Shown: one piece after another, positions 23,724 to 45,704 of the stretch
Layout: every line of letters begins with the position of its first letter
Numbering within the stretch: the first letter of the stretch is position 1
From: a virus
Lineage: Duplodnaviria; Caudoviricetes
IMG/VR virus record: IMGVR_UViG_3300031673_000076
Span: 1-50,122 of that record
DNA length: 50,122 nt
Reading direction: 5' to 3' (one strand)
The notes under the pieces: generated by a model
Databases searched by the model: none
The model's input: only the letters and a program-made list of their open reading frames with translations
Told to the model about the DNA's origin: nothing
Position numbers and translations under genes: made by a program

Positions 23724-23966
23724 TTAGTTTTTCACATTCATTCCTATCAGTTCCAACCTGCCGACTATACCTTCCTCTTGGTTACAATAGTGATTTGACG
23801 GGTTGTTATTAGTTAAAATGTCCTGTTTGGTATCACTCAAGATATGAACCCTTTCGTATGCTGGTATCTTGATTACATTCCCACACCGCATACAACGGTA
23901 AACATGCTCTATTTCCATAGCCTTTCCCTTTCTGTTACACTGGCAATCCCAGTGCATTCCAATCAA
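23724..23966 (-). CDS. Small Zn-ribbon hypothetical protein
   Basis: YRCMRCG...HYC; likely start at MEIEHV. Confidence 0.45.
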   Translation of the reverse strand: MIGMHWDCQCNRKGKAMEIEHVYRCMRCGNVIKIPAYERVHILSDTKQDILTNNNPSNHYCNQEEGIVGRLELIGMNVKN

Positions 23967-25191
23967 ATTTACTTTCCTCTGATTCGGGTCTAAACGATAT
24001 GCCGCTCAAAGCATACCTTAACTGGTCTATATAATGGTTATTCCTGTCAACCGGTGTGTTCATAACCTCGCCCTGCTTATTCTTTTGCCACTGATATAAC
24101 TGGAACTCATTGATGGCATTCTGGCAATCCCGGTGAATGATGACCTCATACTGTAAAATGAATTGTATCCCGTGATTTACCGACCCCTTGCCTGCCCATG
24201 CTGCCATAGAATTCAATCCATATCCTCTGAGTTCCTGTATATCTTTCGGCGCTGAGGGATCACAGCGAATCGGTTCGTTTCCGATAACCGGTTTGATCCG
24301 TTCCGCAATCACATCATTTGTCAACCCGTATTCATACATTTCGTGAGTGATATACAGTTTCTTCTCCTTTATTGCGCACCTCCCAAATGCTGTCGGATCG
24401 TTCGTAAAGCCAAAATCCAGCCCGTTATAATAAGTACCGAAGGCATCCCGCAATCCCGTGAGGTTCTCCACCCTCCAGTTCGTGAATATGAGATGTCCGA
24501 GAACCCCCCAGTTGCCGAGAGTATAGACGTTGTAATAGTATTCATTCTTTTCTGATTCAAGAAAGTACGAGTCTTCAGGAGCCAGGAATCGATTGTCTTT
24601 GTATGTAGTTTTGAGGATCGTGAGTTCGGGGTCTCTGTATTCCATATCCGTATCGTGGAAAGATTTGAAAAATTCTTTGTGTATCCAGTGAGTACGCATG
24701 ATAGGGTTGAATGAGAATGAAATACGTTTCGGAACTTTTGACTGTCCCCTGAGCCGTTTAGTGAGTTGCCGGTAGTCATCTTCACTGGTCTCAGTCGCTT
24801 CCTCAATCCAGATGTCGGTAATGACATCTTTGTTGGCTGGCTTAATGCCTTTGATTTTTTGTACATCGTCAAGTCCCGCAAATAAAGCCTGTCGGTTGTT
24901 TGCCCGTGGGCAGGTTATCGTCATTTCCGATTTGTTCACTTTGAAGTAATCCCATAGTTCCCATTCACTGATTACTGAGTTCATTTCATTAAATGTCGTG
25001 GTTCGGTGCGTATTCGCTGTGTTCCTTATTATCAGATAATTACGCTCACCTTGCAGTAAATCGGATATGGCACGTTGTGCAAGGAAATGACTCTTGCCCG
25101 AAGATGCACCACCAAAGAATATCTGGGTTCGGGTCTGATCTTCAACATAGGGTTTGAACGCATCATTTATCCGCCACTGCTTTATTATCAT
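23935..25191 (-). CDS. terL: Terminase large subunit, PBSX family
   Basis: GGASSGKS Walker A, IWIEEATE Walker B, GLDFGFTNDP nuclease motif, NHYIDQLRYA. Confidence 0.95.
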   Translation of the reverse strand: MIIKQWRINDAFKPYVEDQTRTQIFFGGASSGKSHFLAQRAISDLLQGERNYLIIRNTANTHRTTTFNEMNSVISEWELWDYFKVNKSEMTITCPRANNRQALFAGLDDVQKIKGIKPANKDVITDIWIEEATETSEDDYRQLTKRLRGQSKVPKRISFSFNPIMRTHWIHKEFFKSFHDTDMEYRDPELTILKTTYKDNRFLAPEDSYFLESEKNEYYYNVYTLGNWGVLGHLIFTNWRVENLTGLRDAFGTYYNGLDFGFTNDPTAFGRCAIKEKKLYITHEMYEYGLTNDVIAERIKPVIGNEPIRCDPSAPKDIQELRGYGLNSMAAWAGKGSVNHGIQFILQYEVIIHRDCQNAINEFQLYQWQKNKQGEVMNTPVDRNNHYIDQLRYALSGISFRPESEESKFDWNALGLPV

Positions 25192-40067: not shown

Positions 40068-40823
40068 ATGAATAATCGTGAAATAATAGATAGTTGGATT
40101 GAATTGATTAGAGCAAAAACAGGGCTAAATAAATATGGCTATAAGAATTTAGCTGTAGATTCTGATATATCGCCTACATATTTGTCTGGAATTGTTAATG
40201 ATATAAAGAATATCGGGAAAAAAACGGAAAGAAATCTTGCCAGAGGTATAAATAAAAGAACGAATTTTGATGTACATCACAGTGATATTTGTAGAGGTGC
40301 TGGATATTATGAGAATAGAAAACGTGTAGAAGAAACTTATAGATTTGCCACAGAAAATAGTGTCAGTGAAGCCATTGAAAAACTTAAAACTCCACCAATC
40401 GACTCAAATGTCAGTTTTATTGAAATTGATTTGACCGATACCATACCATTATTAGTAAAGTGTAGGGTAGGTGCTGGTACTTATTGGGTGGACTCATACC
40501 CTGTGGGTGAAGGTATCGGCGAAGTTCCCCGTTATGGCGTAAAAGGCAAAAGGGTTTTCGCAGTCGAAGTTGACGGGGAATCTATGTTGCCCGATCTTCA
40601 AAATGGTGATATATTGATAATTGATTCTGATAAGATTTTTACAGATGTCAAGGGCGGGATCGCAGTTATTAGGCACGGTGATGACAGGATATTGATTCGG
40701 AAAGTTTTTATTAGAGGTGATTATTATTTACTTGAACCATCTAACAAGGAATATGAACCTGACCTTATACCATGCAAAGAAGTGCAGTTATATAAAATCG
40801 TAAAATCAGTGAGGTCTTGGTAA
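40068..40823 (+). CDS. cI: CI-like repressor (HTH plus S24 autopeptidase)
   Basis: N-terminal HTH; Ala-Gly site in VGAG; V.GESM.P catalytic Ser; IRKV Lys. Confidence 0.9.
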   Translation: MNNREIIDSWIELIRAKTGLNKYGYKNLAVDSDISPTYLSGIVNDIKNIGKKTERNLARGINKRTNFDVHHSDICRGAGYYENRKRVEETYRFATENSVSEAIEKLKTPPIDSNVSFIEIDLTDTIPLLVKCRVGAGTYWVDSYPVGEGIGEVPRYGVKGKRVFAVEVDGESMLPDLQNGDILIIDSDKIFTDVKGGIAVIRHGDDRILIRKVFIRGDYYLLEPSNKEYEPDLIPCKEVQLYKIVKSVRSW

Positions 40824-40824
40824 A

Positions 40825-41178
40825 ATGGAAACAACAATATTATTATGGTTGTTATTCGGTTTTATCTCCGCCATTGTGGGTGCAAAAAAAGGCGAAGGTT
40901 GTCTGGGATTTATATTCGGTGTTCTTCTGGGGCCAATCGGATTATTGATTGTGATTGCATCTTCTGGAAACCGAAAGATATGTCCTTATTGCAAATCGAA
41001 AGTTCACAAAGATGCTTTGGTATGTCCGCACTGCCAAAGGGATTTAAAGTCAAATATCTCAGTCATTGGTATATCCAATATTCCAGAATATAAGGAATCA
41101 ACAAGTCATAGTTGGTTTTGGAGCTTACTGGGGAAAGAATATGGTAGATTGCAAGTATATCTAAGGAAAAAAGAATGA
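40825..41178 (+). CDS. Membrane protein with zinc ribbon (lysogeny accessory)
   Basis: Two hydrophobic helices (LLGPIGLLIV) plus CPYC...CPHC. Confidence 0.75.
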   Translation: METTILLWLLFGFISAIVGAKKGEGCLGFIFGVLLGPIGLLIVIASSGNRKICPYCKSKVHKDALVCPHCQRDLKSNISVIGISNIPEYKESTSHSWFWSLLGKEYGRLQVYLRKKE

Positions 41179-41414
41179 TGCAAAGATGGCTTGCCATGAT
41201 AAACAACGGGTTCGGTCGCTGTCAGGAATGTCTGAAACCATTCTACTATTCATGGTGGCTGACAACCAGGTTCCCTCTTAAATGTCGATTCTGCGGGAAG
41301 GATGCCGTCCTTCGTGTGGAGCGTGGCGAGCTTTCTCCTGACGATCAGATCATTATCTACAATGAAATTAAACGCCTCGAAGATGCGCATATTAAAGATT
41401 TCTCAATACAATGA
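41175..41414 (+). CDS. Small zinc-ribbon protein
   Basis: CQEC...CRFC; ATGA-coupled on both sides. Confidence 0.6.
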   Translation: MMQRWLAMINNGFGRCQECLKPFYYSWWLTTRFPLKCRFCGKDAVLRVERGELSPDDQIIIYNEIKRLEDAHIKDFSIQ

Positions 41415-42496
41415 ACCCTCTGAATAAACCGACTCTCTATAAACGCAAGGACTCGAACTGGTGGTGGTCATCTTGGTATACTGATGGCAAGCAAAAACGT
41501 AAATCCCTAAAAAAACTTAACCTCTCAATAGACAGGTATTCCAAAGAGGAAGCCGAAGATATACTTAATGGTCATCTCGGTATTATCCCGCCAGTTCCTG
41601 ATCGTGGAGATGAAACTCTTGCTTGGCTCAGGGATAAGTTCTTGCTCACAATCGAAAGAGAAGGCGTGAGAGAAACCACGGTCATAGTATATCGTGCAGC
41701 CGTTAATCATCTTATATCTCTTCTCGGTGAGGACTTTCCAGTATCGGAAGTGTCAAAAATACCTCACGTCAAAAAATATCAGAACTATCTATTTGATAAA
41801 GGTCAGAGGTCCACATCTATAAATTCTAAATGCAGGAGTCTAAGAGCCATATTTCAAAGGCTTTTAGACAATAATATCATAACTGACAACCCATTTAAGC
41901 GGTTCAAGTCATTACGTGAAGTTAATTTATATAAAAACAATAACTTTCTTACAATAGAGCAGATTAATAAATTCTTTGAAGAGGTCCACAGGGCAAGAAA
42001 TCAGGAGAATGTAAGGTTATTCAGGATTCTTCTTTTTACCGGCAGGCGGGTAACTGAGATACTCGAACTTGGGCGGGAAGATATTGACACTGACAATAAA
42101 AGATTCCAGCCCATGAACATAAAAGACAAAAATAAAGTAAAACGGTGGAAGGCGATGCCGGGTGAAGTCATTGAGGATTTTCAATTTTTCATTAACCAAT
42201 ACCCTTTCAGTAAATTCCCTTTACAGATATGCCGGCGTGATACATTGACGAAAACGTTCAGGCGGTGGCGTATAAGAGCAGGATTGCCGTCAAATATCCA
42301 CTTACATTCCCTCAGACATAGTTTCGTAACCCATGCCCTGGATCATGGCGAGCCAGTTTGGAAAATCAAAGACTACCTTGACCACTCTACGGTACTTGTC
42401 ACCGAAGGCTATGCTCACACCCATGTAACCGAAACGGTTGAAACGGGGATAAAAATGCCTGTGACAAGTGCACAAAGGGGAATTAGAAAACGGTAA
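41411..42496 (+). CDS. int: Tyrosine integrase
   Basis: TGRR..EI, HSLRHSF, LDH......T..YAH; SAM-like core-binding domain; N-terminal arm-binding domain. Confidence 0.95.
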   Translation: MNPLNKPTLYKRKDSNWWWSSWYTDGKQKRKSLKKLNLSIDRYSKEEAEDILNGHLGIIPPVPDRGDETLAWLRDKFLLTIEREGVRETTVIVYRAAVNHLISLLGEDFPVSEVSKIPHVKKYQNYLFDKGQRSTSINSKCRSLRAIFQRLLDNNIITDNPFKRFKSLREVNLYKNNNFLTIEQINKFFEEVHRARNQENVRLFRILLFTGRRVTEILELGREDIDTDNKRFQPMNIKDKNKVKRWKAMPGEVIEDFQFFINQYPFSKFPLQICRRDTLTKTFRRWRIRAGLPSNIHLHSLRHSFVTHALDHGEPVWKIKDYLDHSTVLVTEGYAHTHVTETVETGIKMPVTSAQRGIRKR

Positions 42497-42523
42497 AATG
42501 TGATTAGTGCCGTGATTACTGCC
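42461..42523 (+). repeat. Putative integrase arm-type sites
   Basis: GTGACAAGTGCA (42461), GTGATTAGTGCC (42500), GTGATTACTGCC (42512); GTGATT/AATCAC recurs at 42665, 42679 and 42720. Confidence 0.5.
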
Positions 42524-42557
42524 CCTGCAATTCCAATAATATCATAGACTGTCAGTA

Positions 42558-42615
42558 AGACTTAAAATCTCGGGGGCTTTATGCCTGTACGGGTTCGATT
42601 CCCGTTCCCGGTACA
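42558..42615 (+). other. attP core: 3' half of tRNA-Leu(UAA)
   Basis: AGA-CTTAAAA-TCT anticodon loop, long variable arm, ACGGG-TTCGATT-CCCGT T-arm and 3' acceptor strand; 5' half absent; immediately downstream of int. Confidence 0.88.
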
Positions 42616-42621
42616 ATAAGC

Positions 42622-42662
42622 AAGGCACATCGGAGGGTTTGACTCTTCAGTGCCTTTTCTTT
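42622..42662 (+). terminator. Terminator after the tRNA fragment
   Basis: AAGGCAC...GTGCCTT followed by TTCTTT. Confidence 0.5.
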
Positions 42663-42731
42663 ACAATCACGATTTAAGGTGATTTATGATGCTTATCTGT
42701 CAATCATAAATAAGGATTTAATCACGTTTTG

Positions 42732-43406
42732 TTACAGTTTTAAACTTGGCTGAAAGGCTATTTTTAATTTGTAACCTTTTATCCTATTTTCTGTTCCCCA
42801 CATTGGTTGTAAATTACTTAATGCCCAACATCTCTTGAAATCAAGATGTTCAGGTGAATCAAAATTAAATGCAGATATTGGAATTTTATGATCGATTTCC
42901 CATTCACCGTAATTATCCCAACTCATGCCTTTTGTAAATTGTTTCTCAAGATGTCTTTTGAGTTTATTCAAAGTATAACCTACGAGATTTTCCCAATGAC
43001 ATCCTTTTTTATTACCATTTAATGAAAAGCTTATTGCACTTGATATATTACCATTGAGTCTATATTTTATATTGGTTTTTCTTTTCTCTTTGAGATATTT
43101 AGAAAAATATATATTTCTTTTATTGCACAAATAATCTATTTCTTGAGCTGGTGTTAATATTATTTTATTTGATAAATCAAGTAAAGATTTTTCTAAATCT
43201 ATAGAATCGATAAGACCCAAATAATTATTTAATATTCCTATTGCTTCCTCTTTAGTATGTTTATCAATTAATAATCCTATCTTTTTGCAGGACTTTCTTT
43301 TTTGTTTGCCTTCGATATACCATGAATACCACCACCATCTTGAATCTGGGCGTTTATATAAGTTGGGTTTATTATATTCATTTTCTGATATTCGGGTTTC
43401 TTTCAT
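42732..43406 (-). CDS. HNH (endonuclease VII-like) nuclease fused to a copy of the integrase N-terminal domain
   Basis: HLEKQF..GMSWDNYG.WEIDHKIP...NLQPMW..EN..K; residues 12-66 are 37/55 identical to integrase residues 5-59. Confidence 0.88.
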   Translation of the reverse strand: MKETRISENEYNKPNLYKRPDSRWWWYSWYIEGKQKRKSCKKIGLLIDKHTKEEAIGILNNYLGLIDSIDLEKSLLDLSNKIILTPAQEIDYLCNKRNIYFSKYLKEKRKTNIKYRLNGNISSAISFSLNGNKKGCHWENLVGYTLNKLKRHLEKQFTKGMSWDNYGEWEIDHKIPISAFNFDSPEHLDFKRCWALSNLQPMWGTENRIKGYKLKIAFQPSLKL

Positions 43407-45030: not shown

Positions 45031-45321
45031 TTAAATTATGTTATCCCATTCCCAAAAATCAATATGTCGCAGAAACCGATACGTTACTTCCCATATAATA
45101 CATGCAGAGACCGTCAAGATTGACATAGGAACGATTTTAAGCTGCCCGGTGATATAAAGTATGTACCCGAATGGTAAAGCATAACTGCACCATTTCAAGG
45201 CGTGCCATAATAGATTTAATTTCTCAGCCCCCTTTCCGTGATCAATGGCGTCCATACAGGCGTTTAAAAACCATGAAAAAAGAATTATGAATATTGCTAT
45301 TTTCACTTTACACTTCTCCAT
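45031..45321 (-). CDS. Membrane protein of the lysis cluster
   Basis: Three hydrophobic segments; A.MD...WH..KW. Confidence 0.55.
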   Translation of the reverse strand: MEKCKVKIAIFIILFSWFLNACMDAIDHGKGAEKLNLLWHALKWCSYALPFGYILYITGQLKIVPMSILTVSACIIWEVTYRFLRHIDFWEWDNII

Positions 45322-45704
45322 AGTATTGGTCTTGTGTCAAGATGAATGAATGTCGAATGTTTCTCGATACCCCCAAATATAAGTTCTAAAGCCATCCCGT
45401 GCATCGCCCCCAACCGCCTAATGAACTCATCGTCGTCCACGCCGCCACTCCATCCCGGTCTCGCATCAGTGGCGAAATCCATGTGCCACGACCCCTTCGA
45501 CCCTCCTATCGCCTTATTATGTTCCAAACACCTGTACCCGGAATTGATCACGATGGCGAACCCTAACCGTTGACGTGCCGTCTCCAGCTTCTCCATGTGG
45601 CGAAACAGGATGTCCCCAATGCGTATTCGCTGGCAGCACGGGCACCGGCACTCCCTCAGCGTGAAATGGTCGGTTATGCTTTCATTGGCGGTTATTGCCA
45701 TCAT
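45303..45704 (-). CDS. Peptidase M15 family endolysin
   Basis: HF...E..C.CC, INSGYRC..HN..IGG...S.H....D, FIHLDTR. Confidence 0.9.
   Translation of the reverse strand: MMAITANESITDHFTLRECRCPCCQRIRIGDILFRHMEKLETARQRLGFAIVINSGYRCLEHNKAIGGSKGSWHMDFATDARPGWSGGVDDDEFIRRLGAMHGMALELIFGGIEKHSTFIHLDTRPILWRSVK

What the first reader, a model, noticed from the sequence alone, without database searches (positions are those of the whole stretch)
41411..43406. HNH nuclease carrying a copy of the phage's own integrase arm-binding domain, facing the integrase across attP
Seen: integrase residues 5-59 (NKPTLYKRKDSNWWWSSWYTDGKQKRKSLKK...KEEAEDILNGHLGII, 41423-41587) and HNH residues 12-66 (NKPNLYKRPDSRWWWYSWYIEGKQKRKSCKK...KEEAIGILNNYLGLI, 43373-43209) are 37/55 identical by hand alignment. 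The two genes converge on the tRNA-Leu attP and its GTGATT repeats. The nuclease motif (IDH...N...EN) looks intact. Known: N-terminal beta-sheet domains of lambda/Tn916-type tyrosine integrases bind arm sites, and related AP2 domains occur in HNH homing endonucleases, but there they are distant relatives. Inference: this may be an att-arm-guided nuclease. It could cut attP/attL/attR of rival elements using the same tRNA site, drive homing of the integration module, or compete with Int as a directionality factor. After integration the two genes would sit at opposite prophage ends.
Basis: partly seen in the sequence, partly recalled or inferred. Interest (0 to 1): 0.88.

Follow-up and report, generated by a model that had tools for sequence, protein, structure and literature searches.

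The report
Phage nuclease carrying integrase's docking domain
A temperate soil phage encodes, right beside its chromosomal attachment site, an intact DNA-cutting enzyme whose DNA-targeting head is an old copy of the phage integrase's own N-terminal docking domain, so it probably cuts DNA where the integrase docks, though this is untested.

Summary
Int (41411-42496, +) and a 224-aa nuclease gene (42732-43406, -) converge on a 235-bp spacer. Int residues 2-84 match nuclease residues 9-89 (44/83 identical, E 1e-23).

The spacer holds the 3' part of a tRNA-Leu(UAA) gene, flanked by 2 + 3 GTGATT repeats.

The C-terminal domain belongs to a very large phage-borne family: 35,811 representative clusters. 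It has a confident beta-beta-alpha model and an intact DH...N...N motif. Its relatives carry other N-terminal modules, mostly zinc ribbons.

The integrase-like head was found only in this phage. Three related integrases have no such neighbour. Synonymous sites between the two copies are saturated (pS 0.78) against pN 0.25. The predicted beta-strands are 15/18 identical to Int.

Best reading (about 0.4): a homing-type nuclease retargeted to the integrase's arm sites. Binding, cutting and role are untested.

Earlier unchecked notes of this scan report similar fusions beside attP in at least seven other genomes.

Verdict: new variant of a known kind.

The parts
41411..42496 (+). Tyrosine integrase, 361 aa
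   Evidence: Pfam Phage_integrase on residues 179-338 (E 6.9e-18) and SAM-like core-binding domains on 73-165. phrog_1 integrase on residues 6-338, E 1.8e-44.
41414..41662 (+). Int residues 2-84: N-terminal (putative arm-binding) domain, linker and start of the core-binding domain. This is the segment shared with the nuclease.
   Evidence: BLASTP 44/83 identical, E 1e-23. The same segment is conserved in three related integrases.
42500..42517 (+). P-arm: two direct GTGATT repeats (42500-42505 and 42512-42517), 12 nt apart. Candidate arm-type sites.
   Evidence: (D3: 12-nt units, 92% alike).
42559..42614 (+). 3' part of a tRNA-Leu(UAA) gene (anticodon loop, variable arm, T arm, 3' acceptor strand). 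Probable attP core region.
   Evidence: The 27-nt stretch matches 11 genome loci exactly; the 7 loci scanned are all tRNA-Leu(taa). Alignment A3. No complete tRNA by ARAGORN.
42665..42725 (.). P'-arm: three GTGATT repeats (42665-42670 on -, 42679-42684 on +, 42720-42725 on -). The last lies 6 bp from the nuclease stop codon.
42732..43406 (-). Chimeric nuclease gene, 224 aa (P0001). A GGAG-type ribosome-binding site precedes the ATG, and the start lies 6 nt after the stop of the upstream 62-aa ORF.
   Evidence: The identical gene occurs in contigs of two studies.
43140..43382 (-). Nuclease residues 9-89: integrase-derived head. The model gives strands 15-18, 24-31 and 34-39 and helix 52-63, followed by a linker.
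   Evidence: AlphaFold2 on a 5-sequence alignment gives pLDDT 81-90 over residues 11-60. The strands are 15/18 identical to Int.
42735..43124 (-). Nuclease residues 95-224: HNH / His-Me finger domain. Contains D172-H173 (42888-42893), N198 (42813-42815) and N207 (42786-42788).
   Evidence: pLDDT 94-98 for most of the domain, with strands 169-173 and 199-203 and helix 204-210. These columns are nearly invariant in 86 sequences. phrog_1035 'endonuclease VII', E 4.6e-9. 35,811 representative relatives.

Best explanation
The gene at 42732-43406 is an intact, free-standing member of a very large phage-borne family of modular HNH (His-Me finger) nucleases of the homing-endonuclease type.

In this phage lineage the family's usual N-terminal DNA-binding module (mostly a zinc ribbon) has been replaced by a copy of the first ~85 codons of a tyrosine integrase gene. 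Its closest known relative is the phage's own int, 235 bp away. The copy covers the small three-strand-plus-helix N-terminal domain, the linker and the first turn of the core-binding domain.

Because the sheet residues are almost the same as in Int, the nuclease most likely docks on the same repeats that Int's N-domain reads. The candidates are the five GTGATT sites in the P and P' arms. It would then nick or cut DNA a short distance away.

The most likely role is selfish. It would cut the att region of related phages or prophages that share the integration module but lack the gene, and be copied in during repair. Its own genome would be spared because the gene itself replaces the DNA next to the outermost P' repeat, where the catalytic domain would reach.

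Shown: the paralogy, the intact motif, the modular family and the attP anatomy. Inferred: arm-site binding, cleavage, self-immunity and homing.
For: Paralogy: 44/83 identical, E 1e-23.

Direction of transfer:
- The shared segment runs on into the linker and first core-binding helix. That part is conserved in three other integrases.
- Of the 89 family ORFs found in 80 loci, 49 carry at least 2 CxxC motifs, 12 an HTH-like head, 14 other heads, 13 short or cut heads, and 1 (this one) the Int-like head.

Closest to its own Int, over 58 aligned columns:
- nuclease vs IntW, 37 identical
- nuclease vs the two other integrases, 28 and 26
- IntW vs those two integrases, 31 and 29

The head has been kept. 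Synonymous sites are saturated (pS 0.775) while pN is 0.248. Predicted strands are 15/18 identical to IntW, against 9/18 to each of the other two integrases.

Fold: strand-strand-strand-helix at pLDDT 81-90. The three best PDB hits are AP2 DNA-binding domains. The language-model look-alikes are Tn916-type and lambda-type integrase DNA-binding domain clusters, scoring 0.93-0.94 (a lead only).

Nuclease intact: plus phrog_1035. PDB fold hits are nearly all Cas9 HNH domains, though weak (best E 0.046).

Homing-type family:
- At least 573 of 600 candidate stretches in IMG/VR encode a relative.
- 7 of 80 loci hold 2-3 copies.
- N-terminal modules are shared with other nuclease families in L038 and L057.
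- One member matches NUMOD3.

Sporadic distribution: the gene is absent beside three related integrases.

Target anatomy: 2 + 3 repeats flank a tRNA-Leu core, with the last repeat 6 bp from the gene's stop codon.

Precedent: HEG/non-HEG domain shuffling and the chimeric nuclease Odn (PMC10448857 passages; PMC8263062 abstract).
Against: - No allele lacking the gene, and no second copy of the fusion, was found. Homing therefore has no comparative support.
- The phage's own attP keeps all five repeats, so self-cutting has to be explained away by an untested geometric argument.
- The repeats are only moderately unlikely by chance (0.6-1.8% of shuffles). Nothing shows that either protein binds them.
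- The head has no significant match to any Pfam arm-binding family, to lambda Int's N-domain (hhalign E 0.054, probability 1%), or to any solved or viral predicted structure (no hit at E <= 0.001).
- The nuclease domain misses Pfam's HNH threshold: 8 of 86 members match at E <= 1, best 0.043.
- At 53-64% identity the two heads could have drifted to different DNA specificities.
Confidence: 0.4

Rival explanations
1. An ordinary homing endonuclease whose head merely descends from an integrase. The head was captured by a local duplication or recombination next to int, and has since drifted to read some other target. The position beside attP is then a historical accident, or reflects that attP-adjacent DNA tolerates insertions.
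For: The duplication is old: synonymous sites are saturated and nucleotide identity is 113/174. 21 of the 58 head positions differ. The family swaps heads freely. The fusion is a singleton.
Against: The predicted strands are 15/18 identical to the resident Int, against 9/18 to the other integrases. The third strand is identical in the two window proteins. That pattern is not expected if the specificity had moved.
Confidence: 0.25
2. An Odn-like weapon. The nuclease uses integrase-type specificity to destroy competing phages, prophages or satellites that use a related integration module at the same tRNA-Leu site. Its role would be exclusion rather than self-propagation.
For: There is a direct precedent. 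ICP1 Odn joins a copied DNA-binding domain of a satellite's origin-binding protein to a nuclease and cuts at the iterons (PMC8263062 abstract; coliphage homologues in PMC10448857). A 19-residue relic of a related integrase start exists in another genome of the probable host phylum, so related elements do circulate.
Against: No rival element with matching repeats was identified. The head is closest to the phage's own Int, not to a foreign one. The self-targeting problem is the same as for homing.
Confidence: 0.15
3. A modulator of site-specific recombination. The head competes or cooperates with Int at the arm sites, acting as an integration inhibitor or a directionality factor. The nuclease domain would be auxiliary, for instance nicking to relax or bend att DNA.
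For: The head shares Int's probable specificity. The gene sits at the end of the minus-strand operon that runs on from the endolysin gene (phrog_894) at 45303-45704, so it would be made when excision, not integration, is wanted. No recognisable excisionase was found near int.
Against: All catalytic columns are intact and the C-domain is a typical member of a mobile nuclease family. Three related integrases work without such a partner. Known directionality factors are small DNA-bending proteins (recalled), not nucleases.
Confidence: 0.12
4. A decaying or neutral relic of a chance gene fusion, with no present function.
For: Singleton. No expression data: no RNA holder was listed, which is no evidence either way.
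Against: The frame is open for 224 codons, with a ribosome-binding site and coupling to the upstream ORF. The catalytic columns are intact. pN is far below the saturated pS. The identical sequence occurs in two studies.
Confidence: 0.05

Closest known systems
AP2-domain HNH homing endonucleases (His-Me finger group 2, HNH_3 / I-HmuI-like; 'IPA-HNH' genes of phage ICP1)
   Same: A phage-borne HNH nuclease joined to a small strand-rich DNA-binding domain of the integrase/AP2 kind. The architecture is modular and the genes behave as mobile genes (PMC5714182 passage; PMC10448857 passages). The best PDB hits of my head model are AP2 domains (not significant).
   Different: In those proteins the HNH is N-terminal and the AP2 C-terminal. 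Here the order is reversed and the nuclease belongs to another family with no Pfam model. Their AP2 domains are not close copies of a resident integrase. Here the head is 53-64% identical to the integrase 235 bp away, and the gene abuts attP.
Odn (Gp88) of Vibrio phage ICP1, and its coliphage homologues
   Same: A chimeric nuclease whose DNA-binding domain is copied from a site-specific DNA-binding protein of a mobile element. The nuclease is thereby aimed at that protein's repeated binding sites (PMC8263062 abstract; PMC10448857).
   Different: The nuclease domain there is T5orf172, not HNH. The donor is a replication initiator of a foreign satellite, and the target is the satellite's origin. 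Here the donor is an integrase, closest to the phage's own, and the presumed target is att arms. Activity is shown for Odn and not here.
N-terminal arm-type DNA-binding domain of lambda Int and Tn916 Int (Pfam PF09003, PF02920, PF14657)
   Same: The position at the very N-terminus of a tyrosine integrase, ahead of the SAM-like core-binding domain. The predicted three strands plus helix. Repeats on both att arms in a 2 + 3 layout like lambda's P1, P2 / P'1-P'3 (the layout of lambda is recalled).
   Different: No significant sequence, profile or fold match. This sequence type is rare: matches in 3 of 168, 1 of 401 and 3 of 401 genomes of three phyla. At least one of the last three is spurious.
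Terminase-associated HNH proteins of cos phages (HK97 gp74 type; recalled)
   Same: A small phage HNH protein.
   Different: Those genes lie next to the terminase genes. Here the large terminase is at 23935-25191, 18 kb away, and the head is of integrase type.

Membership tests
Integrase arm-type DNA-binding domain (lambda/Tn916 kind) | Sits at the N-terminus of a tyrosine recombinase, before the core-binding domain | tested here: met
   In Int the segment precedes SAM-like domains (73-165) and the catalytic domain (179-338). The same holds in three relatives.
Integrase arm-type DNA-binding domain (lambda/Tn916 kind) | Three-stranded sheet packed on one helix | tested here: met
   The AlphaFold2 model of nuclease residues 1-75 has strands 15-18, 24-31 and 34-39 and helix 52-63, with pLDDT 81-90 over residues 11-60. 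This is a prediction from 5 sequences.
Integrase arm-type DNA-binding domain (lambda/Tn916 kind) | Significant sequence or profile match to a curated family or to lambda Int | tested here: not met
   No Pfam hit for either head, even at E <= 10. hhalign against lambda Int residues 1-70 gives E 0.054, probability 1%.
Integrase arm-type DNA-binding domain (lambda/Tn916 kind) | Fold match to solved members | tested here: inconclusive
   The top three PDB hits are AP2 domains at E 0.28-0.66, and none reaches E <= 0.001. In BFVD, integrases and homing endonucleases appear among the top 50 but none is significant.
Integrase arm-type DNA-binding domain (lambda/Tn916 kind) | Binds repeated arm sites flanking the core | not testable with these tools
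   Candidate sites exist: 5 GTGATT repeats.
HNH / His-Me finger nuclease | Beta-beta-alpha metal finger | tested here: met
   Strands 169-173 and 199-203 and helix 204-210, at pLDDT 94-98. PDB fold hits are nearly all Cas9 HNH domains but weak (best E 0.046, none <= 0.001).
HNH / His-Me finger nuclease | Catalytic His after Asp in the first strand, plus Asn/Asn (or His) metal ligands | tested here: met
   D172, H173, N198 and N207 are present and nearly invariant in 86 aligned members.
HNH / His-Me finger nuclease | Passes a curated family threshold | tested here: not met
   No Pfam or NCBIfam HNH call for this protein. PF01844 matches 8 of 86 members at E <= 1 (best 0.043) and HNH_4 matches 7 of 86. 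Only phrog_1035 'endonuclease VII' matches, at 4.6e-9.
Free-standing homing endonuclease gene | Conserved nuclease joined to interchangeable DNA-binding modules | tested here: met
Free-standing homing endonuclease gene | Sporadic, often multi-copy, in phage genomes | tested here: met
   Met for the family: 7 of 80 loci hold 2-3 copies. The gene is absent beside three related integrases and absent from 168 genomes of the probable host phylum.
Free-standing homing endonuclease gene | Cuts the allele that lacks it and is copied in by repair | not testable with these tools
   No allele lacking the gene was found.
Odn-like chimeric anti-element nuclease | DNA-binding domain copied from a site-specific protein of the targeted element | tested here: inconclusive
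   The head is a copy of an integrase domain. Its closest known relative is the phage's own Int, not a foreign one. Only three other integrases were available for comparison.
Odn-like chimeric anti-element nuclease | T5orf172 nuclease domain | tested here: not met
   The C-domain is HNH-like.
Excisionase / recombination directionality factor | Small DNA-bending protein without catalytic domain (recalled definition) | tested here: not met
   224 aa with an intact nuclease domain.

The most novel reading that the evidence does not exclude
Temperate phages repeatedly and independently build 'attachment-site-directed nucleases' by joining a copy of their integrase's arm-binding domain to whatever mobile nuclease domain is at hand, and they park the gene on attP. 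Such enzymes would read the integration module's own address code to cut the attP/attL/attR of elements that share it. That would drive the spread of the cassette or evict rivals from a shared tRNA site, and would be a so far undescribed layer of conflict over integration sites. This window would be one instance built on a nuclease family not covered by Pfam. Earlier unchecked notes of this scan describe others built on HNH_3, PacI-type and T5orf172 domains.
Probability: 0.3. Interest if true: 0.8.

Novelty: new variant of a known kind. Interest (0 to 1): 0.6.

Why it matters
If the head still reads the integrase's arm sites, this is a natural nuclease addressed by an integration module's own code. 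It would show that homing-type nucleases can be retargeted by borrowing a domain from a housekeeping phage gene, as Odn did from a satellite's replication protein. It would also point to competition or gene drive at phage attachment sites, which is not part of the textbook picture of integration. It offers a simple test bed as well: two proteins, one 235-bp DNA, five candidate sites. If the head has drifted to another target, the case is an ordinary example of module shuffling in homing endonucleases.

Tried and rejected
Searches for a second copy of the integrase-like head all failed:
- Word-index protein search with residues 1-75: only the query itself among 14 candidates.
- Profile of the two heads against longer proteins: only the window's two proteins among 732 candidates.
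- tblastn against 50,697 GenBank phage records: one chance hit in a tape measure gene.
- IMG/VR scans with Int, A2 and A5: nothing, apart from L014, a chance WWW-containing stretch in a 2002-aa ORF.
- Metagenome scan: one related integrase, L027, with no fusion.
- Genomes: matches in 3 of 168, 1 of 401 and 3 of 401 genomes, none in a nuclease-sized frame with a nuclease domain. L109 is spurious, being antisense to a 466-aa ORF.

Head-only relatives below them could not be listed.

A small integrase HMM (four relatives plus lambda Int) found no tyrosine recombinase within 10 kb of the family nuclease in any of the 79 viral loci. Its sensitivity is limited, so this is weak evidence.

Pfam on 10 family members with unusual heads found no arm-binding domain.

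tblastn of lambda Int residues 1-70 against GenBank phages matched 80 records, one place each. All annotated features seen under the match were integrase or excisionase, or a hypothetical protein or nothing. So no lambda-type fusion occurs among the listed cultured phages.

Other negative or uninformative results:
- PADLOC: no hit.
- PDB by sequence: only chance RecA hits.
- Promoter and terminator scans were uninformative (27 promoter-like sites against 21.9 expected).
- The first whole-protein model mis-built the head as helices, because unrelated heads were aligned over it. The head was therefore refolded alone.
- The terminase-associated HNH reading was rejected on position.

Reads:
- No RNA holder was listed.
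- In run X2, bins 42642-42779 had no cover. With roughly 4x fragmented contigs, that proves nothing.
- No joints were seen.

Complex prediction was not used, because no protein-protein binding claim is made.

Literature. Four searches and the passages read show no description of an integrase arm-domain/nuclease fusion. This covers the held library only. Supplements are closed, and the supplementary tables of PMC10448857 that list domains associated with HEG nucleases might bear on this. Magnani 2004, Wessler 2005 and Sitbon & Pietrokovski 2003 were seen only as references inside those passages. Structures and arm-site layouts of lambda and Tn916 Int are recalled.
Full report
WHAT IS THERE. The window is a whole IMG/VR virus record of 50,122 bp, estimated 93% complete. 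It carries:
- major head, portal and large terminase genes;
- an endolysin, and a CI-like S24 repressor at 40068-40823;
- a tyrosine integrase at 41411-42496 on the plus strand (Pfam Phage_integrase 179-338, SAM-like domains 73-165).

A 224-aa ORF at 42732-43406 lies on the minus strand. It is the last gene of the long minus-strand operon that runs through the structural and lysis genes. It has a GGAG-type ribosome-binding site and starts 6 nt after the stop of the preceding ORF. The two genes converge on a 235-bp spacer.

THE OBSERVATION. BLASTP aligns Int residues 2-84 with residues 9-89 of the 224-aa protein: 44/83 identical, E 1e-23. The similarity does not stop at the small N-terminal domain. 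It runs through the linker into what, in the integrases, is the first helix of the core-binding domain. At the DNA level the 58 best-aligned codons are 113/174 identical. Third positions match at only 28/58, so this is an old copy, not a recent duplication or an assembly artefact. In a second, independent soil study an identical 599-nt contig spans the joint between head and nuclease domain.

THE ATT SITE. ARAGORN finds no complete tRNA. A 42-nt exact search found nothing in the species-representative genomes. The 27-nt T-arm plus acceptor stretch matched 11 loci exactly, and all 7 that I scanned place it in a tRNA-Leu(taa) gene. The alignment shows that the phage carries the gene from the anticodon loop to the 3' end (about 42559-42614) and lacks the 5' half. 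This is the classical form of an attP core that rebuilds the tRNA on integration.

Flanking the core are five GTGATT repeats: two direct copies on the Int side, and three on the nuclease side in mixed orientation. The window holds 44 in all. Shuffles of the spacer reach five copies of any 6-mer in 0.6-1.8% of 5000 trials. I read these as candidate arm-type sites, plausible but unproven.

The best tRNA matches include a Latescibacterota genome and a MAG of the same phylum; G002 appears in the 'phylum of G001' list. That MAG holds a 12.9-kb contig with a 38%-identical integrase and a syntenic upstream zinc-ribbon ORF. The host is therefore probably in that phylum (inference).

THE NUCLEASE DOMAIN. 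Residues ~95-224 define a very large family. It has 35,811 representative clusters at E <= 1e-3 and 18,541 at <= 1e-10. No Pfam, NCBIfam or PADLOC model reaches threshold; only phrog_1035 'endonuclease VII' matches, at 4.6e-9. The AlphaFold2 model is confident here (pLDDT 94-98 for most of the domain) and shows strand 169-173, strand 199-203 and helix 204-210. D172-H173, N198 and N207 are nearly invariant in 86 members. PDB fold hits are almost all Cas9 HNH domains but weak (best E 0.046). I accept it as a divergent HNH / His-Me finger domain with an intact active site.

The family is viral. At least 573 of 600 candidate stretches in IMG/VR encode a relative, and none was found in 168 genomes of the probable host phylum. 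In the 79 viral loci plus the window there are 89 family ORFs, with 2-3 copies in 7 loci. Their heads are:
- at least two CxxC motifs in 49;
- an HTH-like module in 12;
- other in 14;
- short or cut in 13;
- integrase-like in 1, this one.

In L038 and L057 the zinc-ribbon head is shared with a different HNH family in the same contig. This is the behaviour of free-standing homing endonuclease genes. It matches published statements that HEGs shuffle domains with each other and with non-HEG genes (PMC10448857).

THE HEAD. Folded alone on a five-sequence alignment, it gives three strands (15-18, 24-31, 34-39) and a helix (52-63) at pLDDT 81-90. That is the topology known, from recall, for the lambda and Tn916 integrase arm-binding domains and for AP2 domains. 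The evidence for family membership is otherwise weak:
- no Pfam hit;
- hhalign against lambda Int residues 1-70 gives E 0.054 at 1% probability;
- the best PDB hits are three AP2 chains at E 0.28-0.66;
- no significant BFVD hit;
- ESM Atlas look-alikes are Tn916- and lambda-type integrase DNA-binding clusters at 0.93-0.94, a lead only.

So it works like an arm-binding domain by position and shape. Membership of the curated families is not shown.

WHOSE COPY. Only three other integrases with this head were found: G001:C79, G023:C89 and metagenome contig L027. There is also a 19-residue relic in G015. Over 58 columns the nuclease head shares 37 residues with the window's Int, against 28 and 26 with two of the others. 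Int itself shares 31 and 29 with them. In the predicted strands the figures are 15/18 against 9/18. Synonymous differences are saturated (pS 0.775) while pN is 0.248.

The simplest reading has three parts. The first ~85 codons of an int gene of this lineage were joined long ago to a family nuclease domain, replacing its usual head. Both copies have been kept under purifying selection. The DNA-reading sheet has stayed the same in both. None of the three related integrases has such a neighbour, and no other instance of this fusion exists in any collection I could search. So it is a lineage-specific event.

HOW IT MOST LIKELY WORKS. My best explanation (about 0.4) is a homing-type nuclease retargeted to the integrase's arm sites. 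The head docks on the GTGATT repeats and the HNH domain nicks or cuts nearby. The outermost P' repeat lies 6 bp from the gene's stop codon. In this genome, therefore, the DNA within reach of a nuclease bound there is the gene itself; in a relative lacking the gene it would be something else. That is the usual way free-standing homing endonuclease genes avoid cutting their own genome. This step is inference.

The rivals are:
- an ordinary homing endonuclease whose integrase-derived head now reads another site (0.25);
- an Odn-like weapon against rival elements using the same integration module (0.15);
- a modulator of integration or excision (0.12);
- a relic (0.05).

COMPARISON WITH WHAT IS KNOWN. 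AP2-HNH homing endonucleases already join an integrase/AP2-type fold to an HNH domain (PMC5714182; PMC10448857). In those the domains are in the opposite order, the nuclease is of another family, and the DNA-binding domain has no close kinship to a resident integrase. ICP1 Odn shows that a phage nuclease can be aimed by a domain copied from another protein's site-specific DNA-binding module (PMC8263062 abstract).

What is new here is the donor (an integrase arm-type domain closest to the phage's own), the place (on attP) and the nuclease family (no curated model). My four literature searches found no description of such a fusion.

After I had reached this reading, the scan's own notebook showed that similar fusions beside attP had been noted in at least seven other genomes, on several nuclease families. 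Those notes are unchecked AI notes and I could not test them. My one indirect test, lambda-type heads in GenBank phages, found only integrases.

VERDICT. This is a new variant of a known kind (a chimeric, module-swapped homing-type nuclease). Interest 0.6.

Noticed in passing
window 41175-41414 (+); L015 1077-1502: The 79-aa zinc-ribbon ORF whose stop overlaps the int start resembles, by eye, the C-terminal part of the 141-aa ORF just upstream of the related integrase in G001:C79. It is therefore a conserved partner of this integrase family. It may be its directionality factor or another cofactor.
   Followed up: partly
L026 1501-1560 (G015:C640): A 19-residue relic of this integrase-type N-terminus ends in a stop and is followed by frame-less DNA. 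In its few residues it is slightly closer to the nuclease's head than to the window's Int. It is too short to weigh.
   Followed up: partly
P0002-P0243; L029-L107: The C-terminal nuclease domain defines a family of 35,811 representative clusters. No Pfam, NCBIfam or PADLOC model reaches threshold. It is mostly viral, and phage contigs often hold 2-3 copies (three each in L035 and L038).
   Followed up: partly
L038 10273-11160 and 15238-16113; L057 9644-10357 and 10930-11466: Within one contig, the same zinc-ribbon plus lysine-rich N-terminal module is attached to two different HNH-type nuclease domains. This is direct evidence of module shuffling between nuclease families.
   Followed up: partly
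window 42567-42614 (run X2, record 13): A 294-nt contig of the second soil study shares only the tRNA-like core (1 difference) and then runs on as unlike sequence. It could be a host tRNA-Leu gene (attB) or an att junction. The flanking letters were not shown.
   Followed up: no
window 42786-42844 and 42900-42942: Many short soil-metagenome contigs, 90-95% alike, pile up on the two most conserved nuclease motifs (summed depth up to 66). Relatives of this nuclease family are therefore abundant in those soils.
   Followed up: no
L023 9093-11615 (G001:C79): In the related element the integrase is followed not by a nuclease but by an 840-aa ORF that looks, by eye, like a type I restriction-modification methylase. 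No tRNA fragment was seen in the 150-bp spacer. A tRNA-Tyr lies 3 kb further on.
   Followed up: partly
window 42620-42660: A hairpin followed by a T-run lies just after the tRNA-like core, on the plus strand. It would terminate the int transcript inside attP (one search lists 42632-42648).
   Followed up: no
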